Virus record (IMG/VR): IMGVR_UViG_3300031753_000002
Location: 1 to 64,000 of that record
Reading direction: 5' to 3' (one strand)
DNA: 64,000 nucleotides
DNA from: a virus
Shown here: in pieces, positions 32,525 through 50,026 of the stretch
How positions within the stretch are numbered: the first letter of the stretch is position 1
How the letters are laid out: each line of letters starts with the position of its first letter
Notes under the pieces: model-generated
The model's input: the letters and a program-made list of their open reading frames with translations, nothing else
Database searches by the model: none
What the model was told of the DNA's origin: nothing
Position numbers and translations under genes: made by a program

Positions 32525-32614
32525 GACCGTTAACCACGACCGCCGATTTTCCTTGTGAAAGTCGGCGGTCGTGTCATATTCGGGGCGATGACCAAGCGTA
32601 TCGGAGGGACCTCT

Positions 32615-34465
32615 ATGACCAAGTTTAGAGAACGGCGGGAATCATGGCCGGCGAATGCGCCGCGCCTGAGCGACCGGGAGCGCGGCTATCGGCAACGAGA
32701 AGATATCCGTATGGTCGCCTCGCTAGTCTTCGCCTTCGGGATCGCATGCGTTCTGTGGATCGTTGGCTGGGGTTTAGGTCAATGGTAGCACCGCCATTTG
32801 AGAGGAATACGGGACATGATCAAGTGCAAGAATGCCGACCAATCAAATGCCGATACGGTCAAGCCGGGCGATATCCTAATCGCGGATGCTGGCTTTACTT
32901 GCCTCAAGGAAGGCCGCCCGCTGGTAGTCCAGGAAGACCCAACCAAGGTCGGTGAGCGCATTTCGCGGCTCTATGTCCAGTGTAACGACGGGCGGCATTA
33001 CCTCGATGGGCAACTCGGTGAAGAAAGCGCGCTGATCGGGTTCTATTTCGCGTGAGGGAATTTGAATTCAGTTCCGGGGCCTATCAGGACGACCCCGCCT
33101 CGCCGGCCATGAGCTTCCGTGCGGACACCATGCACGGACCTGCCGCGGTGTGGACTCTCAAAGACGTGCATGCTGCAATCCAAGCGTATGCCCGAAAGTT
33201 CGGCCCGTACCGCACAACCGCAGCGCTGGTTTTGGTCACAGACCTTTATGACGCCAACAAGATACCCACTAGGCTCTATGGGGTGCTAATCTGCTATCTT
33301 TGTCAGAACATGACTAGTCGGCCACACAGGAGACGTGAGAATGTCAGGACTTGAAGAACGAATTCGGGACTTAGCTGAGCGCGGAAATCTCACGCATATC
33401 TCCCTCACGCCGCGGCATGATGGCCGGAAGCTCTTGGGCTGGGCAGCCTCCTACTCCCCAGCGACGGGGTGGGGTCAAGGATTTGGACTTGACGCCGACC
33501 CGGTTACGGCTATCTTGACGGCGATCGACGATTGGAAGCCGGCGAGGAAGCCGCGGAAAACTAAGGTGGTGCCCGACGATGACGACCTCCCCGACCCCAC
33601 GGCGTAAGCGACCCGGCTTTACACAAGTCATTCATGGCGACACGATCGTCATGGGCGACCGCAAAGTCGAATACAAGGGTAAGTATGTTCGGCTCGAATC
33701 TGTGCGGTGCTGCGATTGCGGTTTGACGCACGTGTTGTTATTCAATCGCGCAGTCAAGATGCAGGTTCTTGTCAATACTGTTTCGACTCGGCTTGCTCGC
33801 CGATCGAAGAAATGTCGAAAGCGCATCGCCGCGCTTGCGACCAAGGTCAAGAGGGCGAAATGAGGTACGCCAACTTTGAGCATAGACGTGCGCATGCACG
33901 AGCAATGTCAGGCACGACTCAATGCGCCCGGACAGAACTGAGCGCTCGCCTGAACCGCTGAGATGCCAGTGCGGTGGGACCATCAACGTCCAGGACTCGC
34001 AAGGCCGGTGGATCGTGTGCCCCCTGCTTCGCGGCAAGCACTGTGACGGCGCACCGAAGGCACGGGAGCCTAAGCCATGGGAGTGAGCATCAAAGATCGT
34101 GTCGCGGCACAGCACAGGCGGATCACGGCTGCGAAGCGCGCTGTGGAGGTAGCCTGGGCAGAGCTTCGCGTGATCCAAGCCGATTGCCCACATGAGAGGA
34201 TCGTCGGGACGATGACCATGGGCGAGAGTGGAAGCAAGTGTGTCGAATGCGGTCAGGTGTTCTCATGAAGCATTTCAGCACGTGCCGACCGAGAAGCACG
34301 AGAGCCGCTAACACTTTCTTAACCGGCGTGTGCTATGATGCTCCCTATTTGGAGGAGCCTGCAAACATGGATGCCGCCTTGATTGCGTTATTGAAGCAAA
34401 TCGAAAAAGAGAAGGCCGCGAAGATTAAGGAAAAGTTCACGAAGCTTCGGGAGAAGACCAAATGA
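32615..34465 (+). other. Cluster of short, translationally coupled hypothetical ORFs (e.g. 32615-32788 membrane protein, 32816-33055, 33052-33354, 33341-33607, 33579-33863, 34077-34268)
   Basis: Overlapping start/stop codons and RBSs; several CxxC motifs; no family recognised. Confidence 0.55.
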
Positions 34466-34767
34466 AAATCTTTCTGATGATCATGATCTTACTCGCCCTC
34501 TATGGCGAGTATAATCGACCATCTTGCGGGACGGCCGCGGTGTGCGGCGCTCCGGTTCATGATTTCCTGCATCAGGTGATCGGATGACCGTCGAGCAAGC
34601 GCGCAACGCGGACTACGCCGCGATCGAGGCGCGGGTCTTGGCGCACTTTGCCGCCACGGACCTACCGCGCCCGGAGCGCCGCCTGAGCGAGGGTGATCGC
34701 CGGGCGATCGAGCGATGGTTCCCCGGAAGGCGAGCCGAACACGAACACTGAAAGGGAGAAAAGCAAA

Positions 34768-35067
34768 ATGCCACGCAATGGACACTCGGGCCGATGTTTC
34801 CGTGATCGGCGCCGGACCTATGCCCGCAAGGAACGTCAAGGCGTAATCACTGACCAGCGCAAGTTCGCTGAGCTAGCTGTCAGCGCCGGGTTTTTCAAGA
34901 CAATCTCGTCGGCGCTCTGGTATGCTCCCCGGTTCGATACCGACTTTTTCAGGTGGATCGTCAAGCAGGCGCCGGGCATCGTGCGGAAGCTTGATGGCAA
35001 GCTCGGGGTCTTGCATCCCAAGAACAAGTTCACAGCCGCACCGGCTAAAAACCCGGTTGCCGGGTGA
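34768..35067 (+). CDS. Hypothetical basic protein
   Basis: GGAG upstream of MPRNGH. Confidence 0.45.
   Translation: MPRNGHSGRCFRDRRRTYARKERQGVITDQRKFAELAVSAGFFKTISSALWYAPRFDTDFFRWIVKQAPGIVRKLDGKLGVLHPKNKFTAAPAKNPVAG
35046..35060 (+). promoter_or_regulatory. Late-promoter motif, copy 1 (TAAAAACCCGGTTGC)
   Basis: One of five near-identical 15-mers upstream of late genes. Confidence 0.65.
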
Positions 35068-35121
35068 GGTGATTCGGGCTAGGAAAGCCATGGTCCCCCT
35101 CCCCAATTTCGGGAGTATGCC

Positions 35122-35355
35122 ATGGCTACCCTTACAACGAAGGCTCGCAACAAGCTTCCCGCGTCCAAGTTTGCGCTGTCCGGCGAGCGCTATCCGGTCG
35201 AAGACAAGGCGCACGCTCGCGCCGCGCTCTCGCGTGTGAGCCACGCGGCCAAGGTCGGCAATGTGACGCCCGCCGAAGCCGCGAAGGTTCGCCACAAAGC
35301 GGAGCATGTTCTCGGCGAGACAGATTCCACTTACCATAATACTCCCGGAAGATGA
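35122..35355 (+). CDS. Small basic protein (DUF6582-like head-associated domain)
   Basis: RNKLPASKFAL..ERYPVEDKAHARAALSR. Confidence 0.65.
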   Translation: MATLTTKARNKLPASKFALSGERYPVEDKAHARAALSRVSHAAKVGNVTPAEAAKVRHKAEHVLGETDSTYHNTPGR

Positions 35356-35425
35356 CAGCGAAGATATCGGTTGCGCTTCCGTGAGCGCGGTGTTAGTGTC
35401 TACGGGCAAGGCGAAAGGAACGCCA

Positions 35426-35755
35426 ATGTTCAAGACAAACCGCCGCATCGCGGCACTGGAAAAGTGGAGAAGATTCATGGATGCTCAAGTGCAAGCCCTG
35501 ACCGACAACGAGAAGGCTCTCGCCGACAATGTGGCTAAGCTGATCGCCGATGTCGGCGATTTGCAAAAGCAACTCGCCGCTGGTATCGACGCGGGCGATG
35601 AAGCCGCAATCGCGGCCGTCAATGTCGGCTTGACCGATTTGGTGACTCGCACCGCCGCCGCTCTGGCGACCGGTGCCTCTGGCGCCTCCGGTGCCTCTGG
35701 CGCCTCCGGTGCCTCCGGTGCCTCTGGCGCCTCCGGTGCCTCTGGCGCCAGCTAA
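35426..35755 (+). CDS. Coiled-coil protein ending in (Gly-Ala-Ser)9
   Basis: AAGGA RBS; 9-nt tandem repeat at 35672-35752. Confidence 0.7.
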   Translation: MFKTNRRIAALEKWRRFMDAQVQALTDNEKALADNVAKLIADVGDLQKQLAAGIDAGDEAAIAAVNVGLTDLVTRTAAALATGASGASGASGASGASGASGASGASGAS

Positions 35756-35765
35756 GGCGAGAACG

Positions 35766-35987
35766 ATGGCAAAGGACGCCAAGGGTCACGGTAGCGAATC
35801 GCGGCGCGATGCAGTCGCAGCGGGCCGTGCCTTGGCGTCCCATCAACTCAAAATTCAGCATCTCGACACGTCGCTGCTTGGCAATCCATGGCGCACGGTC
35901 GGGGCGAAGACGAACCGAGCCACTGCCGAGCGCATTGCGCAGCATATGCGCACGGACAACGCTGATACTCTTGTGAGGGTACGATAA
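35766..35987 (+). CDS. KDAKGHGS-tagged small protein 1
   Basis: MAKDAKGHGSESRRDAV... Confidence 0.7.
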   Translation: MAKDAKGHGSESRRDAVAAGRALASHQLKIQHLDTSLLGNPWRTVGAKTNRATAERIAQHMRTDNADTLVRVR

Positions 35988-36334
35988 TGGCCAAGGATGC
36001 AAAAGGACACGGCTCCGAAAGCCGCGGCATCGCCTCGATTACCGGCGCATCGACAACGATGCTCGACGGTCAGCTTCACGGCTCCGTCAGTTGGAAGGAT
36101 CACGGCGGCCGAACCGGCACGACCTCCGGACTCATGGACAACGCGCACATGCAAGCGCTTATGGCGCGAGCCGGTCGCGAAGGCATCACCGATCGGAACG
36201 CAGCCGGCGCGCTTGCGCAAGGTCACCCCAAATCAGCGCCCGTGGCAGTGCATCCGGCTATCAAAGCGGATAACGATGCGGCAATTTCCAGATTGAGGCC
36301 TGCCTACGGAGCCGGCGTCGGATATCGAAAGTAA
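35987..36334 (+). CDS. KDAKGHGS-tagged small protein 2
   Basis: MAKDAKGHGSESRG...ALAQGHPKSAPV; TAATG coupling. Confidence 0.75.
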   Translation: MAKDAKGHGSESRGIASITGASTTMLDGQLHGSVSWKDHGGRTGTTSGLMDNAHMQALMARAGREGITDRNAAGALAQGHPKSAPVAVHPAIKADNDAAISRLRPAYGAGVGYRK

Positions 36335-36374
36335 ACTGGCATCACGGCCATACCGAGGCATCTAGGAGTGTGAA

Positions 36375-36665
36375 ATGGCCAAGGACAGGTTCGGACATGG
36401 AAGCGACGGACGCGGCGGAAGCCGCGGGAGCTTTGGGCAGGGCAATGCACGGTACGGCGGCTATCAGGGGCCGGGCACGCAACGGCTCATGGATTTGCTT
36501 CACGGCACGCACGCCGAGCGCTACGGCGCGGGCCTTAGCCGGGCCTCGGGTGATTCCGATTTCTCTCGCAAGGGCGGGAATCTCTATCTAGGGCCTACCC
36601 CGCCCCCGGCGCATGTCAGCACGCGAGAGCAATTCGCCTCGGCATTGAAGGGAATACGGTCATGA
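36375..36665 (+). CDS. KDxxGHGS-tagged Gly-rich protein 3
   Basis: MAKDRFGHGSDGRGG; AGGAG RBS. Confidence 0.7.
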   Translation: MAKDRFGHGSDGRGGSRGSFGQGNARYGGYQGPGTQRLMDLLHGTHAERYGAGLSRASGDSDFSRKGGNLYLGPTPPPAHVSTREQFASALKGIRS

Positions 36666-36938
36666 AAGACGCAAAGGGTCACGGCAGCGCTTCAGCGGCC
36701 GGGTCCGGTACCACCGAATTCCATGGATGCCATCCGCGCGCATGTCGGCGCTGGCGGAGTTGTCAGTGTCTTGACGCAAACCCGATCGACCGTGATGGAG
36801 AAGAAACATTTTGACAAGTGGGACAAGGCAGGCACGCCGCTCTTGAAGCCCGAGGGCGAGGGCTATCGAATGCACACTGAAGGGGAGCGTGGCGTCTATT
36901 TGCTGCCCGATCAGTTGCGTTACGGAGTTCGGCAATGA
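36662..36938 (+). pseudogene. KDAKGHGS-tagged protein 4, tag out of frame with its cargo ORF (36723-36938)
   Basis: ATG at 36662 reads MKDAKGHGSAS.. and stops at 36814; the cargo ORF is in the +1 frame. Confidence 0.55.
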
Positions 36939-37375
36939 AGGACGCGAAAGGACATGGTAGCGATGCACACGGGGCCGGGGTTGCGCAAGTCGGGCAACCG
37001 ATTCCGGTAGCTGCGAAGGTGGCGGGCGTTATCCAACGTAACCCGAACGGTTTCTCTGTGACGCCAAGCGGGCAAGTGCCAACCAACGGCTTCATGGTTT
37101 CTGTGCCGGGCCGGACGCGCTTCTTGAACCCAGGCGAGGTCACGCCTCAACACGTGGCGGAGTTCGCCAATCAGCACGCCGACCTCTTTCGGGACAACCC
37201 GAATATGCACGTCGGCATGTGGCACGATCCGGCGACCGAAAGGGTCCATCTTGACCCATCCGAGAATTTCAAGAGTCGATCATCGGCCGAAACCGCCGGA
37301 AAGTCGCGTAACCAGATTGCGATTTGGGACGTGCAGAACCGGCGGTCGATTCCGACCGGAGGTACAGGCGGCTAG
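36935..37375 (+). CDS. KDAKGHGS-tagged protein 5 with a globular cargo domain
   Basis: MKDAKGHGSDAHG...GFMVS...HVGMWHD...VHLD...RNQIAIWD. Confidence 0.75.
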   Translation: MKDAKGHGSDAHGAGVAQVGQPIPVAAKVAGVIQRNPNGFSVTPSGQVPTNGFMVSVPGRTRFLNPGEVTPQHVAEFANQHADLFRDNPNMHVGMWHDPATERVHLDPSENFKSRSSAETAGKSRNQIAIWDVQNRRSIPTGGTGG

Positions 37376-37413
37376 CAGAAAGTCTTGCGCACGTGAAAGT
37401 TAGGAAGGTTCCG

Positions 37414-37575
37414 ATGAATGGATGCTATCAAGACGGCGGAGAGCCGACCACAAAGTCGGCCGCCGCGGCGCTCGCTCAGGGTCATCCGAAGGCGACGCCC
37501 GTGCCTGTCAAGTGGGGCATGAAGGATCAACAGGACCCGAGTATAGTCAAGCCCAAGGGGAAACGTGAGGGCTAG
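37414..37575 (+). CDS. 53-aa mosaic peptide (ALAQGHPK + PVKWGMKDQ modules)
   Basis: AGGAAGG RBS; shares modules with 35987-36334 and 38721-39230. Confidence 0.55.
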   Translation: MNGCYQDGGEPTTKSAAAALAQGHPKATPVPVKWGMKDQQDPSIVKPKGKREG

Positions 37576-37576
37576 C

Positions 37577-37825
37577 ATGTTATCTTTTGTCGGATATGGT
37601 CTCACGACTGCCGACATTCTGTATCATCGGCCGGATCATCTGTGGCTTCTCCAAAGGTACCTCTGGCAAGCATTCGATCAAGCCCCGAGTTTCCCTCGCT
37701 TGCATCGATTCCTGGATTTCTGGCAGAGCAATCTCGACGGTCCGCTGCATTCGGTCACGATCACGCATGCGACGTTGGTTATGCCAGCGGAGTTGCGATA
37801 TGCGAGTAATCATTTTCTGATGTGA
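37577..37825 (+). CDS. usg: Usg family protein
   Basis: GYGLTTADILYHRPDH.WLLQ.Y.WQ..D.AP.FP.L..FLDFWQ.NLDGPLHSV...H..L. Confidence 0.85.
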   Translation: MLSFVGYGLTTADILYHRPDHLWLLQRYLWQAFDQAPSFPRLHRFLDFWQSNLDGPLHSVTITHATLVMPAELRYASNHFLM

Positions 37826-37832
37826 GGGGCAC

Positions 37833-38057
37833 ATGCCTGTCGTCAGTCGAGCCCAAGCTGGCTTTGTCGCCATGAGTAAGACCGCTCAGGGCCGCGCCAA
37901 GTTGCGCGCTCATGGCAAGCGGCCAATGCCGGTCAAGGTCGCGACCGAGTTTCAGACGGCAAGCCGAGGCTTGTCGGTCAAGAGCTTGCCTATGCGCAAG
38001 AAGCGGCCGGCGCACGAAGCCGGCATACACACTGCAACGCGGAGGTCCCGCCTATGA
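37833..38057 (+). CDS. Small basic protein
   Basis: MPVVSRAQAGFVAM...PVKVATEF...LP.RK; GAGG RBS. Confidence 0.6.
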   Translation: MPVVSRAQAGFVAMSKTAQGRAKLRAHGKRPMPVKVATEFQTASRGLSVKSLPMRKKRPAHEAGIHTATRRSRL

Positions 38058-38275
38058 CGACAAAGATCAAGATCGAGAATGATGGTACCAGCAACGGCGA
38101 CGTTGTGGTGCGTGCTTTCAATTCGTGCGAGGGTACGATCGCATTCGAGTTGCTCCCGGGCGAAGCTCGGGAGTTGTGGATCACAGACAATACCGGACTG
38201 TTCGTGACGGAGACGTGGCCGACCAAGAAGCCGAATCCCGATAGTCCGGCGCCAGCCGAGCCCGGCGAGGATTGA
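38054..38275 (+). CDS. Hypothetical protein
   Basis: GGAGG RBS; MTTKIKI...L.PGE. Confidence 0.6.
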   Translation: MTTKIKIENDGTSNGDVVVRAFNSCEGTIAFELLPGEARELWITDNTGLFVTETWPTKKPNPDSPAPAEPGED

Positions 38276-38284
38276 TCCGACCGC

Positions 38285-38299
38285 TAAAAGCCCGGTTGC
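38285..38299 (+). promoter_or_regulatory. Late-promoter motif, copy 2
   Basis: TAAAAGCCCGGTTGC. Confidence 0.55.
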
Positions 38300-38312
38300 A
38301 TATAGAGCCGCG

Positions 38313-38642
38313 ATGGTGAATCAGCGTAAAGTTCGTGCTCGCTCTGTTCGATATCGGGCTGCACATCCGCAACGCGTGCGCGATTCGGATAGATCACGCC
38401 GCGCTCGAAAAATGGGCTATGAACCGCCACCTTCTGAAAAGGATTGTTCGGCACGACCACGTGATGGTCGATGCGATTGTTGTTTACGGCCGACAATACG
38501 ATTTCATTTAGATCACGACCATGTAACCGGCGCGTTTCGCGGCTGGGTTTGTGGTCCGTGCAATCAATCAGCTTTTCCTGATGATCCGGTGCGATTGCGA
38601 GAACGCGCCGATTTTCTGGATCGTAAATTACCTTGGCAGTGA
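38313..38642 (+). mobile_element. Endonuclease VII-family homing endonuclease flanked by the duplicated promoter motif
   Basis: RP.DGRCDCC...HLDHDHVTGAFRGWVCGPCN...DDP.RL...ADFL. Confidence 0.8.
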
Positions 38643-38646
38643 CGGC

Positions 38647-38661
38647 TAAAAACCCGGTTGC
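38647..38661 (+). promoter_or_regulatory. Late-promoter motif, copy 3
   Basis: TAAAAACCCGGTTGC, with TTGCGC-N17-TAAGTT. Confidence 0.65.
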
Positions 38662-38720
38662 GCATAGCTTGGCTCCCAGCTAAGTTATCGCGACGGTTTT
38701 TCTTTATTTTGGAGGTCACC

Positions 38721-39230
38721 ATGGCTGTATCTGGCAGTGGCACGGCAGTCCGTGCAAATAACCCCGACCCGCCGATGGTGGATCAGACCAAGTATGACGC
38801 ACGTTCCGGTGCTCCGAAGCGTCCGCAGACCACGTACCCGGTCAAGTGGGGCATGAAGGATCAGACAACCATGTCCGGCCTCGGCGTAGGTATTGGCGGG
38901 CCAGCCGGCGCGCCGGATGCAAGCTCGCCGAATCCGCTCGACCCGGAGCCCCGCGTCAAGAATTTGCGACGCCAGCCGGTCAAACTCGAAGCCAAGTGGG
39001 GAATGCGCGGAGCGTCGCAGACGGACGGCATGAGTGATAGTCATGTCACCGGCAAGACTCTCGAAACCACGATGCCAGATGGCAGCAAGCTCGGTGCGGA
39101 GGCGATGGCAGGCAAGGTTCTCGGTGAGGCAATTCTCTCGGGATCGAGCAAGCTCCCGGCTTCGCAGAGCGCGAAGACCGACAGTGGTACCGCCCCGAAG
39201 CCTTGGCCGGCGCAAGATCGCGGCGGGTAA
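38721..39230 (+). CDS. Low-complexity protein with two KWGM motifs
   Basis: GGAGG RBS before MAVSGSG; YPVKWGMKDQ and EAKWGMRG. Confidence 0.7.
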   Translation: MAVSGSGTAVRANNPDPPMVDQTKYDARSGAPKRPQTTYPVKWGMKDQTTMSGLGVGIGGPAGAPDASSPNPLDPEPRVKNLRRQPVKLEAKWGMRGASQTDGMSDSHVTGKTLETTMPDGSKLGAEAMAGKVLGEAILSGSSKLPASQSAKTDSGTAPKPWPAQDRGG

Positions 39231-39233
39231 CGT

Positions 39234-39536
39234 ATGCGCGCCGTCCGCAGTACGCGGCCGGGCTACGCGGACCCGAGCAATCCTTGGGCGATCGCCAAGC
39301 AGCCGGCATCTCAAGGCGCTGAGGCGGTCAGTGTCATCGGGCACGGGCATGTTGCGCCTGAATTCGCCGCGGCCGTCATGCATAACGATTTGTCGGATGA
39401 CGAACGCAATTTGATGCAGGGCTACAAACCTACGCCGTTGCCTTGGTCTCAAGTGCCGACCGAAGGGTCAGATACAAATGAGACCGAGGGAGACGGGAGT
39501 GTAAGAGACCCTACAGGACAGGGATTCGGGACATGA
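39234..39536 (+). CDS. Hypothetical low-complexity protein
   Basis: 100-aa ORF in operon. Confidence 0.55.
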   Translation: MRAVRSTRPGYADPSNPWAIAKQPASQGAEAVSVIGHGHVAPEFAAAVMHNDLSDDERNLMQGYKPTPLPWSQVPTEGSDTNETEGDGSVRDPTGQGFGT

Positions 39537-39676
39537 GCCTCATTATTTTGATTATCGTGCTTTTGCTGCTTTTCGGCGGCGCCGGGCATTATTATGGCGG
39601 CCCGGCTTGGGGCGGGGGCGGCATCGGGCTTGTGCTCCTGATTTTGCTTATCCTGTTTTTGTTCGGTCGAATCTAG
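39533..39676 (+). CDS. DUF3309-like small membrane protein (47 aa)
   Basis: MSLIILIIVLLLLFGG..YYG..WGGGGIGLVLLILLILFLFGRI; below the ORF-track cutoff. Confidence 0.7.
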   Translation: MSLIILIIVLLLLFGGAGHYYGGPAWGGGGIGLVLLILLILFLFGRI

Positions 39677-39685
39677 GAGGACGCC

Positions 39686-39838
39686 ATGGCGCCTATCGCA
39701 GCCGTCAAGTTCATTGGTTCGTGGGGATGCATCGTCGGCGCCGTCGTGCTCATGGTGCTCGGGCATGAGACGTTCGGGCTGCCCGGCGTGCTTGCGCTTC
39801 TCTCGATAGCATTTTCTCAAGCCCCGGTGACGTGGTGA
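39686..39838 (+). CDS. Small two-TM membrane protein (50 aa)
   Basis: AGGAGG RBS; two hydrophobic segments. Confidence 0.55.
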   Translation: MAPIAAVKFIGSWGCIVGAVVLMVLGHETFGLPGVLALLSIAFSQAPVTW

Positions 39839-40032
39839 AAGACGCAAAGGGACATGGCAGCGATCCGCGTAATGCCGGCGGATCGAAAGCGTCGCATGAG
39901 CGCGCGGCACCTTCGGTTCGTCCAGCGATTCAGATGATGGCTAAGCACGGGGACCTCTTTGACCCAGCGACGATATCTGAGGCACCCACTACGCACCTAG
40001 CCGCGCACATCGCGCACTTTATGGGACTGTGA
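39835..40032 (+). CDS. KDAKGHGS-tagged small protein 6
   Basis: GTG-KDAKGHGSDPRN; GTGA overlap with the upstream stop. Confidence 0.65.
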   Translation: MKDAKGHGSDPRNAGGSKASHERAAPSVRPAIQMMAKHGDLFDPATISEAPTTHLAAHIAHFMGL

Positions 40033-40038
40033 ACGGCT

Positions 40039-40503
40039 ATGATCCGCGGAAAACGACAATATGGAGCACGGCAGCAATATGGCATTCCCTTTGGAGGATT
40101 GAATTCTACGCGCCCGGCACAGAGCCCCGAAAGTGATTTGCAAAATTTAGGCGGCACGGCGCCGGGGGGATTAGTTGGGTTTCCTGGTGGAAATTCACAA
40201 TGGAACACACCAAACGCCGCAGTGCATGCCGATGCAAATTTGCCGCCCGGCGCAACAGTCAATCCGTTGCACAAGGCGTTGGCGTATAGCCATGCGACGG
40301 CTGCGGATGGCGCACCGGATGTGGCGCGCAACGTACCAATTCACCCCGGCCTTCGGCCGGGCCTGTTCCGCACGGCGAGCGATGCCAATCCGCGCGCCCC
40401 GGACGGGCAGATAACAACGCAGGGGCCGATCGCTCCGAATGGTAGGTACCGCGGCGACTCGCCTGAGATACCGAAGCAGCCGAAAGGCACGTACGTCCGA
40501 TGA
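40039..40503 (+). CDS. G/P-rich low-complexity protein
   Basis: 154-aa ORF in operon. Confidence 0.6.
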   Translation: MIRGKRQYGARQQYGIPFGGLNSTRPAQSPESDLQNLGGTAPGGLVGFPGGNSQWNTPNAAVHADANLPPGATVNPLHKALAYSHATAADGAPDVARNVPIHPGLRPGLFRTASDANPRAPDGQITTQGPIAPNGRYRGDSPEIPKQPKGTYVR

Positions 40504-40892
40504 TAATGCTCTATGTGGCATATGTCGCGACGATACAGGCAATGTGGGAGATTGTGATGGCACAAGAAATCGTTGGTTCTCGGATGCCGACGTTGGCGTC
40601 CGATGCGCTTCACCCGTCCGATCGCGGCTATGGACAGAACGGCTTTGCCGGGCCGTCGAGTGATGAACCGGGACAGAACAGCAAGAGCGGTTTCCTGCCC
40701 GGTGTCGATCTAGCCGCGGCTGTGGCCGATAATGGGCTGCGATCGGCTCCGCAAGAGCTTTCGCGTTCGGGAATGGAGCGTCCGCGGGGTGAGAAGGGCG
40801 GCCACATTCAAGGGCCGCAGACGCGCCACGTCAGCGATGCCGGTTATCCGCCGTCGTTTGGGATGACCTCGCGGTCGCCTCGCGACCGATAA
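40500..40892 (+). CDS. G/P/S-rich low-complexity protein (start may be 40557)
   Basis: GGAG RBS before MAQEIVG. Confidence 0.55.
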   Translation: MIMLYVAYVATIQAMWEIVMAQEIVGSRMPTLASDALHPSDRGYGQNGFAGPSSDEPGQNSKSGFLPGVDLAAAVADNGLRSAPQELSRSGMERPRGEKGGHIQGPQTRHVSDAGYPPSFGMTSRSPRDR

Positions 40893-41088
40893 GACGCGTC
40901 TTATCTTTGCCGCTAACCCTGATAAGGGAAACGTTATCATGCGAAAAGCTCCGCCCCGCCCGGCAACCCCTCAACCTCAAACCCAAGCGGGTCAAGCTGC
41001 GGGCGCGGGCAAGCTAAACCTCGCGAACGCGAGCGCGGCCGGGACAACGGCCGGCTACGCGCTATCGTGAGAGGATGAGAGGCGTTAG

Positions 41089-41391
41089 ATGAGCAAAAAT
41101 AAATCGGCATTGCAAACGGCTTCATCTCCGACTCGTATGACTTTAGCTAACGCCTCAGCGGCGTCAACTACCGCTGGGGCACCGACTCCATTAAGTATGG
41201 GACCACAAGGCGGCCCCGCACTTAGTGTCGGACCGCAGACAAGCCCGAGCCCAAAAGGTTCGAATCAACCACTGCCCGCTTCAGCGCCACGGCCGCCCGT
41301 CGCGCCGCATGGCGGCACCAAGTCTCTCGGGACGCACCAATCCGCCTCGCCGAACAAGAAGGGCAATCCGGTACACGGTATGTCAAAATAA
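41089..41391 (+). CDS. P/S-rich basic disordered protein
   Basis: GAGG RBS; directly upstream of terS. Confidence 0.6.
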   Translation: MSKNKSALQTASSPTRMTLANASAASTTAGAPTPLSMGPQGGPALSVGPQTSPSPKGSNQPLPASAPRPPVAPHGGTKSLGTHQSASPNKKGNPVHGMSK

Positions 41392-41392
41392 G

Positions 41393-41427
41393 GCGCGCAT
41401 GGGCGCGCACGTCGGCATGGGCCGGCG
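41393..41427 (+). promoter_or_regulatory. Tandem C-AUGG-G hairpins in the terS leader
   Basis: GCGCGC-ATGG-GCGCGC and CGTCGGC-ATGG-GCCGGCG. Confidence 0.6.
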
Positions 41428-41447
41428 CAGAAGATTAGGAGGCTGAC

Positions 41448-42182
41448 ATGGGTCAGAACCGGCAAGCCAAATATAGACCCGGCTTTGATAAAAGTTCGCA
41501 TGGGCACGTTCGATCTTCGCAGGCTATCATCGGAGTTGACGCCCGCGGTCGGCCAGTAATTCAGAAGCGTCCCGGCGCCCCCACCAAGTACACCCCCGAA
41601 CTATGTCAACGTATTCTAACCGCTATTGAGCGATGGGCAAACGTGACGCATGCGTGCGCCATGAACGGCATCATATATCCGACGTTTCGGCATTGGCTCC
41701 TAAAAAGTAGGAACGGTCGGGTCGGCGACGGATTCGATGTAGAGTTCGATGGCCGCGTTGATAGGCTCCACGTTCATTATGACGATTGCCTGGACGCGTC
41801 AGTGCAGCGAATCGAAGAAAATCTCATGGATCGTGCAATCGGCTGGAAAGAGGTCCTGACGGATAAGGGCCGTGTGCAATACCAGTTCGATGAAGACTTG
41901 CTTAGTCTCGGGTTCACGGGATACGAGGCGTATCTCCGCGATGAAAACGGCAAACCTATTCCCGAGACTGTGGACAAGCAGGACCCCGAGGTCATGCTCA
42001 TGGTTTTGAAACATTTCCGTCCTGAGCGCTGGACGACGAAGATCGATATGGATGTGACGCACAAGGGCGGCGTCCTTGTAGTCGGTGTGAAGGCAACATC
42101 CGAAGAACTGACTGACCTCGCCAAGAAGGCGCGTGACAACCCGGTTGAGATCGAGTTTCGTGAAGACGGGGAGGACGTGTGA
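41448..42182 (+). CDS. terS: Terminase small subunit
   Basis: GAPTKYTPELCQRIL HTH; AGGAGG RBS; directly upstream of terL. Confidence 0.8.
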   Translation: MGQNRQAKYRPGFDKSSHGHVRSSQAIIGVDARGRPVIQKRPGAPTKYTPELCQRILTAIERWANVTHACAMNGIIYPTFRHWLLKSRNGRVGDGFDVEFDGRVDRLHVHYDDCLDASVQRIEENLMDRAIGWKEVLTDKGRVQYQFDEDLLSLGFTGYEAYLRDENGKPIPETVDKQDPEVMLMVLKHFRPERWTTKIDMDVTHKGGVLVVGVKATSEELTDLAKKARDNPVEIEFREDGEDV

Positions 42183-43729
42183 TGCACACCATCCACGCCT
42201 TTCGCAAAGTCGGGAATGAATACATCCCGCTGGTCTATGACGATCATGGCAAGGAAATCGAAGCTGTGTGGGCGCCGCAGCCCGGTTCGCAAGAGCTATT
42301 TCTCAAGGCGTCTGAAATCGAGGTTCTGTACGAAGGAACACGCGGTCCCGGCAAGACCGACGCTCTGATTATGGATTTTTGTCAGGACGTGGGCAAGGGC
42401 TGGGGCGCGGAATGGAAGGGCGTGCTGTTTCGGCAAACGCATCCACAGTTGAGAGACGTGATCGAGAAATCAAAAAAGTGGATCAAACGTATCTGGCCCG
42501 GCGCTTTCTACAACGAGATCAAATTCTTCTGGGAGTGGGAATCGGGCGAACGCTTGTATTTTTCACATTTCAACGTTCCGTCGCAGTATTCCGACTATCA
42601 CGGCCATGCGTACCCGTGGATCGGCTGGGAGGAATTGACAACGTGGCCGAACCCAGACTGCTTCAAAGTCATGTTCGCATGCTCGCGCTCGACGATAGCA
42701 AAGATGCCGAGAAAAGTCCGGGCGACAACGAATCCCTACGGAGTCGGGCATAATTGGGTAAAGTCACGCTACCGACTGCCTGTGCCGCCGGGCGATATCG
42801 TTGGGCCGGTCATTGCTGATAGCATTGACGATCAAGGAAACCCGGAGCCGCCGCGCCGCGCAGTTCACGGCTACCTCGACGAAAATAAAATTCTTGCGCA
42901 TACGGACCCCGGCTACAAAAGTCGGATTCGGGCTGCGGCTCGAAACGAGAGCGAGCTTCGGGCGTGGCTCGACGGATCGTGGGATATCGTCGCAGGCGGC
43001 ATGTTCGACGATATTTGGTATGAATACAGGCACGCAATCGTGGTGCAGCCTTTCGAGGTTCCGCCGGGATGGAAGATCACGCGGGCGTACGATCACGGGT
43101 CTTCGAAGCCGTTTAGCGTCGGCTGGTATGCTGAGAGCGACGGCACTGATTTGGCATTCCCGGATGGTACTGTGCGCGCCACACTCCGCGGCGATATCTT
43201 TCGGATCAAAGAGTGGTACGGCTGGCGCGGGCAACCGAACGAAGGCTCACGCATGTTGGTCCCCGATATCGCCAAGGGTATCGTCGAGCGGGAAATCAAG
43301 TGGGAATGGCGGGCGCCTGATGGTTCATCCAATCGTGTCAAGCGTGGCCCCGCCGACAGTTCGATCTTCGACGATTCGAACGGCATCAGCATCGCCGAAG
43401 ATTTCGAGAAGCCGATCATGTTCAACGGCGTGAAGCACAAGGGCATCGTGTGGGAGAAAGCCGACAAGGGACACGGGTCGCGCGAACAAGGATGGGAGCA
43501 AATCCGAAAGAGGCTCAAGGCCACGAAGCGTCCGCCGGGCGGCTATCGCGAGGTTCCTGGCCTATTCATTACGAAGGATTGCGTCCATTGGCTTCGCACG
43601 GTTCCTACTCTGCCGCGTGATGAAAAGAAGATCGATGATGTTAATGATGAAGCCGAGGATCACACTGGCGACGAAACCCGATATCGATTGCGTTTTGAAA
43701 GTCGCACCGTGACAAGTAGGAGGGCATAA
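42179..43729 (+). CDS. terL: Terminase large subunit
   Basis: WAPQPGSQ, YEGTRGPGKT, GWEEL, ATTNPYG.GH.WVK, AYDHGS, EDH..DETRY. Confidence 0.93.
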   Translation: MMHTIHAFRKVGNEYIPLVYDDHGKEIEAVWAPQPGSQELFLKASEIEVLYEGTRGPGKTDALIMDFCQDVGKGWGAEWKGVLFRQTHPQLRDVIEKSKKWIKRIWPGAFYNEIKFFWEWESGERLYFSHFNVPSQYSDYHGHAYPWIGWEELTTWPNPDCFKVMFACSRSTIAKMPRKVRATTNPYGVGHNWVKSRYRLPVPPGDIVGPVIADSIDDQGNPEPPRRAVHGYLDENKILAHTDPGYKSRIRAAARNESELRAWLDGSWDIVAGGMFDDIWYEYRHAIVVQPFEVPPGWKITRAYDHGSSKPFSVGWYAESDGTDLAFPDGTVRATLRGDIFRIKEWYGWRGQPNEGSRMLVPDIAKGIVEREIKWEWRAPDGSSNRVKRGPADSSIFDDSNGISIAEDFEKPIMFNGVKHKGIVWEKADKGHGSREQGWEQIRKRLKATKRPPGGYREVPGLFITKDCVHWLRTVPTLPRDEKKIDDVNDEAEDHTGDETRYRLRFESRTVTSRRA

Positions 43730-45514: not shown

Positions 45515-45746
45515 GCGAGCGCGTCGGGTCTCGGTTTGGAATGCAGTCATCGCCATCATTGACCAAACCGAGCTTGAAATGCGCGATATCATAGAGCGAG
45601 AGTTCGTCAACACCGCGGGCCTGGACGGGCTTCGGCTCGGCGAGGCCATGACGGCAGCGAACCGCGCCATGAAGCAAATCACGCCGTTGCGCGTTCGGGC
45701 AATCAAGCGCGCGTTCCGATTGATCCGTGACAAGGGCATGGCATGA
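45504..45746 (+). CDS. Hypothetical protein (possible minor head protein fragment)
   Basis: Overlaps the portal stop; helical. Confidence 0.5.
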   Translation: MVNERARRVSVWNAVIAIIDQTELEMRDIIEREFVNTAGLDGLRLGEAMTAANRAMKQITPLRVRAIKRAFRLIRDKGMA

Positions 45747-46627
45747 CCTTCGACCCGAACGAAGCACGTGACTATCACGGCCGCTGGACGGCTGGGAGCG
45801 GGAGCGTGGCGGAAGCACAGGCGCAGGCCATGAAGATTGCCGGCGGGCGCCAGCCGCTCGCCGGACTGCTGCAGAAGCCTATCAAGCTCGGCGACGAATG
45901 GTATGTGCCCGGCCCGAACGCGCGTATCGCCGACGCGGCTGAAGCGTACATGAAGGCCGCGGGCCTGCCGTATGATCCGCCAAAGACTTACCAGAAGGTT
46001 GACTCCGAGCGCGCCACGAAGATCGCGCAAGCCTTTGAAGACATGAAGCATGATCCGAACGACCCGGCCGTCAAGGCATCTTATGAAGCGATGGCGCGTG
46101 AAACCCTCGCCCAATGGCAGGCGCTCAAGGCGACTGGCCTTCAAGTCGAGTGGATCAAGCCCGGCCAGCCGGACCCCTATGCAGACAGTCCACGTCGCGC
46201 CGCGATGGATATGAGTCTGCATAATCATTGGTGGGGCTTTCCGACCGACATGGGCTTTGGCACTGGACCCGAAGCCGAGAAGGCCATGAAGGATAACCCG
46301 TTACTCGCGCCGACCAATGAGGTTGTAGGTGGGCGCCACTTGGTCGTCAACGATGTGTTCCGAATCGTGCATGACCAGTTCGGGCATTTCAAAGAGGGCA
46401 ATGGCTTCCGGGCGGACGGCGAGGAAAACGCGTGGCGCTCGCACGTGGCGATGTATTCGCCGCTTGCCCGCGGCGCGATGACCTCCGAAACTCGGGGGCA
46501 AAATTCGTGGGTAAATTTTGGGCCGTATGGGGCGGCGAACAAGCACGCGAGCGCGGCCGATACTCACTACGCCGATCAAAAGGTCGGTCTCATGCCGGAA
46601 TGGACCCGGACTGAGGGTGCGAAATGA
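45743..46627 (+). CDS. RDxHGRWT-tagged protein with an HDxxGH metallo-domain
   Basis: MTFDPNEARDYHGRWT; NDVFRIVHDQFGH...GF...GEENAW..H..M. Confidence 0.75.
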   Translation: MTFDPNEARDYHGRWTAGSGSVAEAQAQAMKIAGGRQPLAGLLQKPIKLGDEWYVPGPNARIADAAEAYMKAAGLPYDPPKTYQKVDSERATKIAQAFEDMKHDPNDPAVKASYEAMARETLAQWQALKATGLQVEWIKPGQPDPYADSPRRAAMDMSLHNHWWGFPTDMGFGTGPEAEKAMKDNPLLAPTNEVVGGRHLVVNDVFRIVHDQFGHFKEGNGFRADGEENAWRSHVAMYSPLARGAMTSETRGQNSWVNFGPYGAANKHASAADTHYADQKVGLMPEWTRTEGAK

Positions 46628-47541
46628 ATGATGTGACAACCGAACCGCGTGACGAACACGGTCGCTGGACCTCTGGCAGCGGGAGTACCAAGCCGAGCGA
46701 CAAGCTTTGGGCGACGCTTCACGGCGATCCTAATGGGCCGTTCGTGAGTCTCGCAGACCCGGAGAGTAACGCCGCGCATGCGAGAGCCATTTCTGACATT
46801 GCCGGGAGTGTCGCCAAAGAGCTTGGGTTCAATCCATCTAAGATCAACATCACGGATGGCGAGCATAAGTTCACAGTCAACGGGAAAGACATGACGGCGG
46901 CGGGCCTCGCGCATCGGGAAACAGGATTGATAACGCTCTACACGAAGCAGCTTACCGAGTCCTTCACTCCTGGCGCCACGGCGCACGAAATCATGCATCA
47001 AAAATGGAACGCATACCTCGAAGATTATCGAGCGGAGGCGGCCAAAGTCATGACGGACCCGGATGGTGCAAACTCACCGTACCGCGGGCCAGATGCCTTC
47101 ATGAAGGCTGACGGAACCCTTGGCGAAAAGTACGCCGCTCGGTATCCGATCTATCAAGAATACACGAAGCTCATGATGAATTCGGAGAAGATGCGCGCCG
47201 AGGATGGGGTATCCGATTACAGCCGGGAATATTGGAATGCCGTCAACAGCGGCGAAGCTAACCGTGTCAAGGGCACGTACATCAACTCGCAAGGCAATGT
47301 GCAAGAATACACGACAAGCCGCATCACTCTCGACCAGTGCTACCATGAGACGCTCGCAGAGATGGCGAGGCTCGACTATGAGAATAAGAAGGCCAAGGAA
47401 AAGGGCAGCGCGATCTTCAATCCAGTTGCCCCGCCGGCCCGGCTGAAAAGCGGCAAGGCTTCGACGGCTCGGAGGTCGAAGGATTGGGAGGCTTTGTACG
47501 AAGCGATCAACCGCAACTGGGATAAGCGGAGCAAAGCATGA
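46624..47541 (+). CDS. RDxHGRWT-tagged zincin-like metallopeptidase
   Basis: EPRDEHGRWT; AHEIMH; GVSDYS..YW; HETLAE. Confidence 0.75.
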   Translation: MNDVTTEPRDEHGRWTSGSGSTKPSDKLWATLHGDPNGPFVSLADPESNAAHARAISDIAGSVAKELGFNPSKINITDGEHKFTVNGKDMTAAGLAHRETGLITLYTKQLTESFTPGATAHEIMHQKWNAYLEDYRAEAAKVMTDPDGANSPYRGPDAFMKADGTLGEKYAARYPIYQEYTKLMMNSEKMRAEDGVSDYSREYWNAVNSGEANRVKGTYINSQGNVQEYTTSRITLDQCYHETLAEMARLDYENKKAKEKGSAIFNPVAPPARLKSGKASTARRSKDWEALYEAINRNWDKRSKA

Positions 47542-50019: not shown

Positions 50020-50026
50020 GGTCCTC

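What the first reader, a model, noticed from the sequence alone, without database searches (positions are those of the whole stretch)
35766..40032. Array of unrelated small proteins sharing an N-terminal 'KDAKGHGS' tag: candidate virion-loading (address-label) system
Seen: six ORFs begin M(A)KDAKGHGS or a close variant: 35766 MAKDAKGHGSES, 35987 MAKDAKGHGSES, 36375 MAKDRFGHGSDG, 36662 MKDAKGHGSAS, 36935 MKDAKGHGSDA, 39835 (GTG)KDAKGHGSDP. Beyond about 10-13 residues they share nothing. Tag codons vary synonymously (aag gac gcc aag ggt cac / aag gat gca aaa gga cac / aag gac gcg aaa gga cat), so selection is on the peptide, not a DNA repeat. The genes follow the putative late promoter and precede terS. 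Known analogy: T4 internal proteins share a roughly 10-aa N-terminal capsid-targeting sequence. Inference: a modular tag that loads interchangeable cargo into the head, or docks it on one phage protein, for delivery at infection. I do not recognise this motif as described.
Basis: partly seen in the sequence, partly recalled or inferred. Interest (0 to 1): 0.9.

Follow-up and report, generated by a model that had tools for sequence, protein, structure and literature searches.

The report
Shared N-terminal tag on phage proteins
A group of uncultured soil phages starts dozens of otherwise unrelated small proteins, all encoded just before the DNA-packaging genes, with the same 13-residue peptide, which is probably a portable label for proteins carried in the phage head, though packaging has not been shown.

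Summary
Six + strand ORFs begin M(A)KDAKGHGS, or KDRFGHGS once, and share nothing else.

The tag is not local. It heads 193 distinct ORFs in 37 related viral genome groups, falling into about 104 cargo families. All synonymous codons are used, including both serine codon families.

In 24 loci that hold a TerL homologue, 119 of 119 tags lie upstream of it on the same strand. Most lie in a variable slot between two conserved genes.

The same cargo domain carries other headers elsewhere: RDxHGRW-like, WSDEAR-like and HDQxxHG-like. It also occurs inside proteins of 500 to 3601 aa. RDxHGRW repeats before modules of portal- and MuF-fused polyvalent proteins.

Tagged proteins have almost no cysteine and are mostly basic.

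Best reading: a free-standing variant of the polyvalent-protein module header that acts as a head-cargo label, as the T4 capsid-targeting sequence does.

This scan has noted related junction tags on other DNA. I found none in print.

The parts
35122..35355 (+). Untagged DUF6582-like gene; conserved 5' flank of the variable slot
   Evidence: Pfam DUF6582, E 1.5e-4, below the curated cutoff. tblastn hits in 24 of 71 loci. In 16 loci that hold both flanks, 111 of 116 tags lie between this gene and the 38658 homologue.
35766..35987 (+). Tagged gene T1 (73 aa), MAKDAKGHGS
   Evidence: No credible Pfam match (one weak ATP19 line, E 0.046, far below its cutoff) and no PHROG. Cargo relatives with the tag in 6 loci. 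0 Cys, net charge +6.
35987..36334 (+). Tagged gene T2 (115 aa), MAKDAKGHGS; also carries the peptide ALAQGHPKSAPVAVH at nt 36209
   Evidence: No Pfam or PHROG. 0 Cys, net charge +5.
36375..36665 (+). Tagged gene T3 (96 aa), variant tag MAKDRFGHGS
   Evidence: A singleton cargo. 0 Cys, net charge +6.
36662..36938 (+). Tagged gene T4, apparently frameshifted: the tag frame stops at 36814 and the body is open in the +1 frame from 36666 to 36938
   Evidence: 4 of the 6 cysteines found in all 193 tagged proteins lie in the tag-frame tail.
36935..37375 (+). Tagged gene T5 (146 aa), MKDAKGHGS followed by AHGAGVAQVG; the most widespread cargo domain
   Evidence: Found in 31 of 71 loci. 125 homologues. 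7,327 representatives for its profile. Matches phrog_3170 positions 314-397. The Atlas model aligns to other models from residue 3 to 24 onwards, two of four rows from residue 24.
39835..40032 (+). Tagged gene T6 (65 aa), GTG start, KDAKGHGS; lies outside the main slot
   Evidence: No Pfam or PHROG. 0 Cys.
38658..39230 (+). Untagged conserved ORF; 3' flank of the slot; two KWGM[KR] peptides at nt 38844 and 38994
   Evidence: tblastn hits in 30 of 71 loci. Flank analysis. Motifs. No Pfam or PHROG.
40500..40892 (+). Untagged conserved ORF between the slot and terS
   Evidence: tblastn hits in 22 of 71 loci. Also present in the WSDEAR-header phage L306.
41448..45514 (+). terS (41448-42182), terL (42179-43729) and portal (43871-45514), directly downstream
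   Evidence: PHROGs: terminase small and large subunits, and portal at 5.9e-110. Pfam DUF4055 in the portal. 119 of 119 tags lie upstream of TerL in 24 loci.
45743..47541 (+). Two post-portal ORFs headed by RDYHGRWT and RDEHGRWT, about 8 to 11 residues from the start
   Evidence: The 45743 domain matches phrog_3170 positions 187-275, the same family that covers the T5 cargo. It is 51% identical to a module of a 2773-aa 'large polyvalent protein' of Planktothrix phage Pag-Yong1.
8410..8709 (-). Small ORF headed by MANPDQPRDDHGRFT in the replication arm

Best explanation
The peptide (M)(A)-K-D-A-[K/L]-G-H-G-S-[N/D/E]-x-[R/H]-G-G is a portable N-terminal header. It is the free-standing, lineage-specific form of the short header peptides that precede each module in the large portal- or MuF-linked polyvalent proteins of phages. 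In this clade, whose head genes resemble those of Mesyanzhinovviridae, the modules are encoded as separate small genes. They sit in a variable slot between a DUF6582-like gene and three conserved small ORFs just before terS, terL and portal. I think the flexible header is read by one common partner during head assembly, so that each small, basic, cysteine-free protein is enclosed in the procapsid and leaves with the DNA at infection. T4 does this with the capsid-targeting sequence of its internal proteins, and P1 with the N-terminus of DarB. Shown here: peptide-level selection, N-terminal position, cargo diversity, the fixed genomic slot, exchange of headers on one cargo domain, a genome-wide preference at tag position 4, effector-type domains, and the composition. 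Inferred: late expression, packaging, the identity of the partner, and ejection.
For: (1) Recurrence. The pattern scan of viral contigs gave 71 loci and 145 matches, of which 133 directly follow a start codon. In one genome each of 185,579 prokaryote species, only 6 of 114 matches are such tags; the rest lie inside unrelated proteins.
(2) Selection on the peptide. In 193 unique tag contexts every synonymous codon is used, and Ser is AGY 146 times and TCN 47 times. Upstream there is only a purine-rich ribosome-binding-like signal.
(3) Cargo diversity. There are 56 loose or 104 strict cargo clusters.
(4) Position. 119 of 119 tags lie 2.1 to 9.6 kb upstream of TerL on the same strand, in 24 loci. 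111 of 116 lie between the two conserved flanks.
(5) Header exchange. Of 120 T5-family proteins, 106 carry the KD tag, 3 start inside the cargo domain with no header, 6 carry an FNPNQPR..G.W or RD..GKW header, and 5 carry an MWSDEAR header on the same body. The T5 profile finds 7,327 representatives. Of the best 150, 74 are longer than 500 aa, up to 3601 aa, and the domain is often preceded by RD-, HDQxxHG- or RAPKG..GGxW-type peptides.
(6) Kinship to head cargo. RDxHGRWT occurs up to 5 times per ORF, about every 200 aa, in proteins that hold portal domains (9 Pfam portal-family matches among the 51), MuF (4), prohead protease S78 (2), ADP-ribosyltransferase toxin (6), Acb1 (2) and Zeta toxin (2). 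An XkdF-type prohead protease, L070, carries an RD-like header, a WSDAAR header and an internal KDAKGHGS.
(7) Tagged cargos include ART-PolyVal (2), an Arr-like ADP-ribosyltransferase (1), ParB_N (1) and GNAT (2), out of 150 scanned.
(8) Composition. There are 6 Cys in 22,938 residues, and 0 in 17,825 residues of the T5 family, against 1.27% in 20 other proteins of this phage. Net charge is positive in 168 of 193. Only 2 of 193 have a membrane-like segment.
(9) Tag position 4 (K or L) follows the genome, not the cargo family. Within-genome agreement between different cargo families is 0.523, against 0.36 to 0.39 in shuffles, and 0 of 2000 shuffles reach it.
(10) Precedents: the T4 capsid-targeting sequence (PMC3012670) and the first 30 residues of P1 DarB (PMC9024508).
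Against: There are no virion proteomics and no cultured relative with the tag. The nearest cultured portal is 46% identical (PhiJL001, RDJL3, PaMx25), and PhiJL001 has no tag on its pre-terS ORFs. The 23-aa T5 N-terminus finds nothing in 50,697 phage records.
No receptor was found. Phage L306 has homologous TerL (67%), portal (71%) and scaffold (53%), yet uses four MW[ST]DEAR headers and only one RDAKGHGS in the same slot. So either the partner is not one of these proteins, or one partner accepts very different peptides.
In this genome the RD header sits on post-portal genes and the KD header on pre-terS genes. The two may therefore not do the same job.
The block is interrupted by untagged genes that do not look like head cargo: a Usg-like gene, endonuclease VII, and DUF3309 and another small hydrophobic ORF.
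Most cargos have no recognised domain (144 of 150), and many look disordered.
Low cysteine and basic charge also fit disordered proteins in general.
The position-4 test does not control for relatedness among the genomes.
A 2773-aa polyvalent protein that holds a relative of the 45743 module has no such motif.
Confidence: 0.5

Rival explanations
1. The header is a handling signal, not a loading signal. It marks the start of each module for something that happens after enclosure or after entry, such as cutting modules apart, keeping them able to unfold, or ordering their exit through the portal and tail. Free-standing genes keep it for that step, and loading depends on something else.
For: Headers repeat inside proteins already fused to portal, MuF or protease, where a loading signal would be redundant. 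Internal KD copies are preceded by a recurrent [V/L]-x-K-[A/E], as in VSKE, VSKA, VEKA, LAKA and VVKA, which looks like a cut site. In the L070 protease the stretch APVMFNDV..K recurs before the KD motif and at the C-terminus. Earlier notes of this scan on other genomes proposed a two-part 'cut site plus header' junction.
Against: No prohead protease was recognised in this window's head module. A mere cut-site remnant would not stay invariant at six positions in 193 separately encoded proteins. No cleavage has been observed anywhere.
Confidence: 0.2
2. The tagged proteins are not virion cargo. They are cytoplasmic accessory proteins, and the header docks them on one common hub in the infected cell, either a host machine or a phage protein. 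Shared clamp-binding or polymerase-binding tails work this way.
For: The slot also holds untagged moron-like genes: a Usg-like gene, endonuclease VII and small membrane proteins. The KD header is kept apart from the post-portal RD-headed genes. Headers of very different sequence replace one another without visible change of the head genes. A tag gene with relatives of the two conserved flank ORFs lies beside a primase-like ORF on megabase contigs of an Alphaproteobacteria MAG.
Against: The near-total lack of cysteine matches the phage's virion proteins and polyvalent proteins, not its cytoplasmic enzymes. The same cargo domain and kindred headers sit in portal- and MuF-fused proteins. The genes are always co-oriented with the packaging genes and directly upstream of them.
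Confidence: 0.2
3. The header is the recognition or modification site of an enzyme, for example glycosylation, ADP-ribosylation or acetylation. It would then work like the leader peptide shared by many precursors of one maturase.
For: Invariant Lys, Asp, His and Ser in a flexible Gly-rich peptide. A GT4 glycosyltransferase lies inside the head module. Earlier notes of this scan describe another phage N-terminal tag that travels with a radical-SAM enzyme.
Against: No enzyme gene is conserved in or beside the slot. The conserved flanks are small ORFs without a domain. The GT4 gene was seen in only 3 of 71 loci, although few loci reach that far.
Confidence: 0.07
4. The conservation acts at the nucleotide or translation level: a recombination linker for cassette exchange, or a start-region effect on translation.
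For: The slot is a mosaic of cassettes between conserved flanks, 1.6 to 6.7 kb long. Gene starts overlap the preceding stops.
Against: All synonymous codons are used and both Ser codon families occur. Tags within the window share only 13 to 22 of 24 bases. The motif also occurs inside long ORFs. Leu at position 4 is coded by CTC, TTG, TTA and CTT within one genome.
Confidence: 0.03

Closest known systems
Capsid targeting sequence of the phage T4 internal proteins (IPI, IPII, IPIII) and the variable internal-protein locus of T-even phages
   Same: A short shared N-terminal peptide sits on otherwise unrelated, small, basic proteins. They form a variable gene set, and the diversity is thought to serve counter-defence (PMC3012670, passages read).
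   Different: The host phage is a different type, with SPP1-like head genes. No prohead protease or cleavage motif was recognised here. Packaging is unproven. The tag belongs to a header class that also occurs inside giant proteins. I held no T4 sequence from a tool, so sequence likeness was not tested.
N-terminal packaging signal of phage P1 DarB
   Same: An N-terminal stretch of fewer than 30 residues is sufficient to send a reporter into the capsid (PMC9024508, abstract and passages read).
   Different: In P1 no consensus is shared among the Dar proteins (same paper). Here one peptide is shared by more than 100 cargo families.
Phage-type polyvalent proteins (Iyer, Burroughs, Anand, de Souza, Aravind 2017, PMC5512222)
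   Same: The domain repertoire overlaps (ART-PolyVal, ParB-like, GNAT). Both are linked to portal-terminase packaging genes, and both are predicted to be delivered with the DNA. The T5 and 45743 domains are modules of such giant proteins.
   Different: Here each module is a separate gene, so the defining multi-domain polypeptide is absent. Term searches of that paper found no mention of a repeated header peptide; I did not read the whole text.
Junction or header tags of phage cargo polyproteins, noted earlier by this scan on other genomes (unpublished AI notes)
   Same: Short His/Arg...Gly-x-Trp type peptides, followed by Gly-rich linkers, precede each module next to portal or MuF genes. I reproduced this here for RDxHGRWT.
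   Different: The KD variant lacks the aromatic residue and sits at a free N-terminus of stand-alone proteins. It also occupies a separate slot before terS, not after the portal.

Membership tests
T4-type capsid-targeting sequence / internal proteins | One short N-terminal peptide shared by otherwise unrelated small proteins | tested here: met
T4-type capsid-targeting sequence / internal proteins | The proteins are present inside virions and are injected | not testable with these tools
   No proteomics and no cultured tag-bearing phage.
T4-type capsid-targeting sequence / internal proteins | The tag is removed by the prohead protease at a defined site | tested here: inconclusive
   No protease domain in the window's head module. 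Internal KD copies elsewhere follow [V/L]xK[A/E], and one lies in an S78_2 protease.
T4-type capsid-targeting sequence / internal proteins | Sequence relatedness to the T4 tag | not tested
Phage-type polyvalent proteins (Iyer et al. 2017) | Two or more effector domains in one polypeptide | tested here: not met
   Tagged ORFs are 17 to 205 aa, median 123. Those scanned have at most one recognised domain.
Phage-type polyvalent proteins (Iyer et al. 2017) | Encoded beside portal-terminase packaging genes | tested here: met
   119 of 119 tags lie upstream of TerL in 24 loci.
Phage-type polyvalent proteins (Iyer et al. 2017) | Domain repertoire of polyvalent proteins | tested here: met
   ART-PolyVal 2, ParB_N 1, Arr-ms 1 and GNAT 2, out of 150. 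The T5 domain occurs inside proteins of up to 3601 aa. The 45743 domain occurs in an annotated 'large polyvalent protein'.
Module-header (junction) peptides of head-cargo polyproteins (RDxHGRW class; undescribed in print as far as I searched) | Short conserved peptide, then a Gly-rich linker, directly before a module | tested here: met
   The KD logo ends in G-G. RD copies are followed by GGG.
Module-header (junction) peptides of head-cargo polyproteins (RDxHGRW class; undescribed in print as far as I searched) | Interchangeable with other headers on the same module | tested here: met
   T5 family: 106 KD, 6 RD-like and 5 WSDEAR of 120.
Module-header (junction) peptides of head-cargo polyproteins (RDxHGRW class; undescribed in print as far as I searched) | Common descent or shared core [K/R]-D-x-x-G-[H/R]-x-[S/T] | tested here: inconclusive
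   A hybrid N-terminus, HDAKGRFASGSGG...GHGSNPKGG, occurs in the L070 protease, and the pattern matches. Eight residues are too few for a homology test.
Leader peptide of an enzyme-modified precursor family (RiPP-like, radical-SAM-linked tags) | A cognate modifying enzyme encoded beside the tagged genes | tested here: not met
   The conserved neighbours are small ORFs without domains, then terS, terL and portal.

The most novel reading that the evidence does not exclude
KDAKGHGS, RDxHGRW, HDQxxHG, RAPKG..GGxW and WSDEAR peptides are alternative words of one general address code for phage head cargo. Under this reading, any protein given the header of a particular phage is loaded into that phage's head and delivered to the next cell. 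Each lineage's receptor co-evolves with its header, as the genome-wide K/L switch at tag position 4 suggests. Giant polyvalent proteins and arrays of small tagged genes would then be two encodings of the same cargo system.
Probability: 0.3. Interest if true: 0.85.

Novelty: new variant of a known kind. Interest (0 to 1): 0.68.

Why it matters
It is known in detail for only a few model phages, such as T4 and P1, how proteins are loaded into the head for co-injection. It is not known how the many predicted polyvalent effector proteins are loaded, separated or released.

This clade offers a natural dissection of that problem. The same modules that are chained together in giant proteins elsewhere are here single genes with a 13-residue header at a free N-terminus.

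That gives four concrete things to test: a minimal candidate signal, more than 100 candidate injected effector families (ADP-ribosyltransferases, ParB-like and GNAT enzymes, and many unknowns), a variable position that tracks the genome and could point to the receptor, and headers that are swapped on one cargo. If the header alone suffices for loading, it would also be a simple tool for packaging proteins into phage heads.

Tried and rejected
TerL mimicry. The window's TerL holds KADKGHGS, but 15 distinct relatives read ADKGPGSREQGW or similar, without His. It is a coincidence.

Ordinary paralogues. Rejected: the best cargo-to-cargo E-value is 0.59.

Pfam and PHROGs on the six tagged proteins and their neighbours. 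Nothing came back except weak phrog_3170 and phrog_17808 matches for T5 and one weak Pfam ATP19 line for T1, E 0.046, below its cutoff.

Sequences of solved structures, queried with the two header regions. The only hit was a chance match at E 1.4.

Cultured phages. No hit for the 23-aa T5 N-terminus. PhiJL001 has no shared N-termini. The Planktothrix 'large polyvalent protein' holds the 45743-type module but no header motif under my regular expressions.

Literature. Full-text searches for KDAKGHGS, HGRW (33 papers, none on phages among the 15 listed) and six literal header strings gave nothing. Term searches inside Iyer et al. 2017 for cleavage, linker, GRW and similar found no header peptide.

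Rfam on 30000-44000: no family. The promoter scan was not informative.

Expression: no RNA holder was listed for 35000-43000.

Zincin-like ORF at 46624 as a common reader: its homologue was seen in only 1 of the 6 loci checked (L310), so it was dropped.

Receptor search by comparing the KD-type and WSDEAR-type phages: no head gene was visibly replaced.

The Atlas look-up for T5 gave only unnamed viral clusters.

My estimate of about 69 chance matches of the pattern in 596 billion bases is my own arithmetic, assuming equal base frequencies. It did not come from a tool.

Counts with limits. One search examined 95 of the 150 rows listed. The regular expressions are loose and count motifs anywhere in the protein.

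Full report
WHAT IS THERE

The window is bases 1-64000 of an 86,784-bp virus record with direct terminal repeats, rated 100% complete.

Six + strand ORFs start with M(A)KDAKGHGS at 35766, 35987, 36662, 36935 and 39835 (GTG), or with MAKDRFGHGS at 36375. The degenerate pattern for the tag matches 5 times, against 0.00 in 100 shuffles, and nowhere else in the record.

Behind the tag the six proteins are unrelated; the best blastp E-value is 0.59. Their tag-coding DNA shares only 13 to 22 of 24 bases. None has a credible Pfam family. Only T5 (36935) has weak PHROG matches.

The 36662 ORF is probably frameshifted. Its tag frame runs into a Cys- and Arg-rich tail, while the +1 frame is open from 36666 to 36938 and ends on the next gene's start.

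HOW FAR IT REACHES

Scanning IMG/VR contigs with the same pattern gave 71 loci and 145 matches. Of these, 133 directly follow a start codon: 110 as M-K and 23 as M-x-K. The other 12 comprise three copies of a non-GHGS chance match, one at a locus edge, one 12-residue fragment, and seven matches inside long ORFs (about five distinct sites).

With positions 3 and 4 left free, the loci and the window hold 259 tagged ORFs. These reduce to 193 unique ones in 37 genome groups after near-identical contigs are collapsed.

The logo is M-(A)-K-D-A-[K/L]-G-H-G-S-[N/D/E]-x-[R/H]-G-G, after which conservation falls away. Every synonymous codon occurs. Ser is coded by AGY 146 times and TCN 47 times. Upstream there is only a purine-rich ribosome-binding-like signal. 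Selection is therefore on the peptide.

Cargo falls into 56 clusters under loose single linkage, or 104 under a stricter rule.

In the genomes of 185,579 prokaryote species, the same pattern gave 114 matches. That is near my own rough chance estimate of about 69. Only 6 are real tags: two Hyphomicrobiales MAGs and one Alphaproteobacteria MAG. The rest lie inside unrelated proteins such as orotate phosphoribosyltransferase. This serves as a control for the N-terminal rule and hints at the host group.

WHERE IT SITS

The tag-bearing loci belong to one clade. TerL is 61-80% and portal 64-81% identical to the window's.

In the 24 loci with a TerL homologue, 119 of 119 tags are upstream of it on the same strand, at 2.1 to 9.6 kb. 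In 16 loci that hold both flanks, 111 of 116 tags lie between a DUF6582-like gene and a conserved untagged ORF (the homologue of 38658). That interval varies from 1.6 to 6.7 kb. It is thus a defined variable slot directly before terS, terL and portal.

In the window a terminator-like hairpin lies at 34866-34885, just before the slot. There is no strong + strand terminator between the slot and terS. This fits one late unit but does not show it.

The head genes are SPP1- or Mesyanzhinovviridae-like. The cultured relative PhiJL001 has no tag.

WHAT THE TAG IS RELATED TO

The consensus is K[YF][DSN]P..[QE]P-RDxHGRWT-xGGG, and most copies lie inside long ORFs.

Among 51 such ORFs, Pfam finds 9 portal-family matches, MuF (4), prohead protease S78 (2), capsid (1), DUF7178 (11), ADP-ribosyltransferase toxin (6), Acb1 (2), Zeta toxin (2) and topoisomerase IB (2). 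This is the portal- and MuF-linked polyvalent protein class of Iyer et al. 2017 (PMC5512222; passages read). One example, L204, runs portal, Acb1, MuF, RD motif, module, RD motif, module.

With a relaxed pattern the motif recurs up to five times in one protein, roughly every 200 residues. It heads modules.

The KD tag does the same in a few phages. A 982-aa ORF and a 376-aa ORF of a 197-kb contig each carry two internal copies, each preceded by [V/L]-x-K-[A/E]. An XkdF-type prohead protease (Peptidase_S78_2, E 5.6e-18) carries three headers: an RD/KD hybrid near its N-terminus, a WSDAAR peptide after the protease domain, and KDAKGHGS at residue 412.

HEADERS ARE EXCHANGED ON ONE CARGO

T5 is the commonest cargo, found in 31 of 71 loci.

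Of its 120 listed homologues, 106 start with the KD tag and 3 start inside the cargo domain with no header. Six start with FNPNQPR..G.W or NPNEPRD..GKW headers, and 5 with M(A)WSDE[AS]R..A..AR, all on the same body.

A sister phage, L306, has TerL 67%, portal 71% and scaffold 53% identical. It fills the same slot with four MW[ST]DEAR-headed genes and one RDAKGHGS-headed gene. WSDEAR-type headers also occur singly in KD-type genomes. Another phage, L315, has six ORFs headed by FDP..(H)PR.P.G....G.[FW] between portal and MuF and a seventh after the MuF gene.

A profile of the T5 family finds 7,327 representatives at E of 0.001 or better. Of the best 150, 53 are 501-1000 aa and 21 are longer, up to 3601 aa. 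The domain sits at many positions in them. In the 95 rows I examined, it is preceded within 70 residues by a KD header in 17, an RD-like header in 18 and WSDEAR in 1. By reading, most of the rest are preceded by HDQxxHG-, RAPKG..GGxW- or SEAGRYAA-type peptides (loose whole-protein counts).

phrog_3170 joins the 45743 domain and the T5 domain in one family model. The 45743 domain is 51% identical to a module of an annotated 2773-aa 'large polyvalent protein', which itself lacks these headers.

OTHER PROPERTIES

Pfam recognises ART-PolyVal (2), GNAT (2), Arr-ms (1) and ParB_N (1) among 150 tagged proteins. The other 144 have none.

Tagged proteins hold 6 cysteines in 22,938 residues, and 4 of those are in the frameshifted T4 tail. 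The T5 family holds 0 in 17,825 residues. For comparison, 20 other proteins of this phage hold 1.27%, the RD-bearing polyvalent proteins 0.32%, the capsid family 0.27% and the portal family 0.59%.

Cargo net charge is positive in 168 of 193, with a median of +5. Only 2 of 193 have a membrane-like segment. Structure matches to the Atlas's own model of T5 start between residues 3 and 24 (two of four rows at 24), so much of the header and the next peptide lies outside the matched fold.

A second peptide, [AGS]H[QASTE]xG[VI]xx[VILAM], occurs in 52 of 193 tagged proteins. That is 2.27 per 1000 aa, against 0.02 in the window's ORFs, and it usually comes right after the tag.

Tag position 4 follows the genome. 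Some genomes are all K (11 of 11, 10 of 10) and others mostly L (12 of 14, 6 of 8, with four different Leu codons). Agreement between different cargo families within a genome is 0.523, against 0.36 to 0.39 in shuffles, and none of 2000 shuffles reaches it. Cargo families found in both genome types carry the residue of their genome. Relatedness among the genomes is not controlled in this test.

READING

The tag is a portable header under peptide-level selection. It is the stand-alone counterpart of the module headers of head-linked polyvalent proteins.

The most economical function is a docking label that brings each small, basic, cysteine-free protein into the procapsid for delivery with the DNA. 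This would parallel the T4 capsid-targeting sequence (PMC3012670) and the P1 DarB N-terminus (PMC9024508). I put this at about 0.5.

The main rivals are two. One is a header needed for handling after enclosure, such as cutting or exit. The other is a cytoplasmic docking peptide. A modification site is less likely, and a nucleotide-level role is nearly excluded.

Against the simple loading picture: no receptor emerges, very different headers replace each other without visible change of the head genes, RD and KD headers occupy different slots in one genome, and untagged moron-like genes interrupt the block.

WHAT I COULD NOT DO

No co-fold of the header with portal, capsid or scaffold was obtained, and the contigs of the differently headed T5 homologues could be reached only in part. 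No RNA run was listed.

PRIOR WORK

My full-text searches found none of the header strings in print.

This scan has noted related junction or header tags in phage cargo polyproteins on several other genomes, and the RD tag on this window. What this finding adds is the KD variant, its use at a free N-terminus in a variable pre-terS gene slot, the header exchange on one cargo, the genome-wide position-4 preference, and the cysteine-free composition.

Noticed in passing
window 36662-36938: The fourth tag gene looks frameshifted. The tag frame stops at 36814 after a tail with 4 cysteines. The +1 frame is open from 36666 to 36938 and ends on the start of the next tag gene. This could be an assembly error, a real mutation or programmed frameshifting.
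   Followed up: partly
window 36209, 37468, 37510, 38844, 38994: Further short peptides are shared among the disordered proteins of this block. ALAQGHPK[SA].PV.V occurs in T2 and in the 37324 ORF. KWGM[KR] occurs in the 37324 ORF and twice in the 38658 ORF. Variants of the first are common in tagged proteins of other loci.
   Followed up: partly
window 36965; loci L006-L076: A second portable peptide, [AGS]H[QASTE]xG[VI]xx[VILAM] (for example AHQAGVQQV), occurs in 52 of 193 tagged proteins. It is usually right after the tag but also occurs mid-protein or at the C-terminus. It is about 100-fold enriched over the window's ORFs.
   Followed up: partly
L070:6087-7694 (minus strand): An XkdF-type prohead protease-scaffold protein carries three different header types: an RD/KD hybrid, WSDAAR and KDAKGHGS. 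The stretch APVMFNDV..K occurs twice, once just before the KD motif and once at the C-terminus, as if marking cut sites.
   Followed up: partly
L096 and L119 (Alphaproteobacteria MAG, contigs of 1.96 Mb and 469 kb): In L096 a tag gene is followed by ORFs that, read by eye, resemble the window's two conserved flank ORFs (38658 and 40500), with a VirE/primase-like ORF nearby. L119 holds a paralogous tag gene whose neighbours were not read. Possibly an integrated element or satellite that carries part of the slot.
   Followed up: partly
L306 (IMGVR_UViG_3300037261_000013) 4642-6475: A sister phage fills the same pre-terS slot with MW[ST]DEAR..A..AR-headed genes instead of KD-headed ones, while its head genes stay homologous.
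   Followed up: yes
window 37565-37825: A Usg-like protein (Pfam Usg, E 8.2e-34) is encoded inside the phage's accessory block.
   Followed up: no
window 38313-38642: An endonuclease VII gene (Pfam E 5.7e-14) lies within the block. Its relatives occur in 4 loci.
   Followed up: no
window 35306-35755: This ORF ends in a run of Gly-Ala-Ser repeats. It overlaps the DUF6582-like gene in another frame at its start.
   Followed up: no
window 49841-51133: A GT4-type glycosyltransferase gene sits between the scaffold and major capsid genes. It is also present in relative L028 at 59% identity.
   Followed up: no
window 43469: TerL contains KADKGHGS, which resembles the tag. Relatives read ADKGPGSREQGW, so the likeness is a coincidence.
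   Followed up: yes
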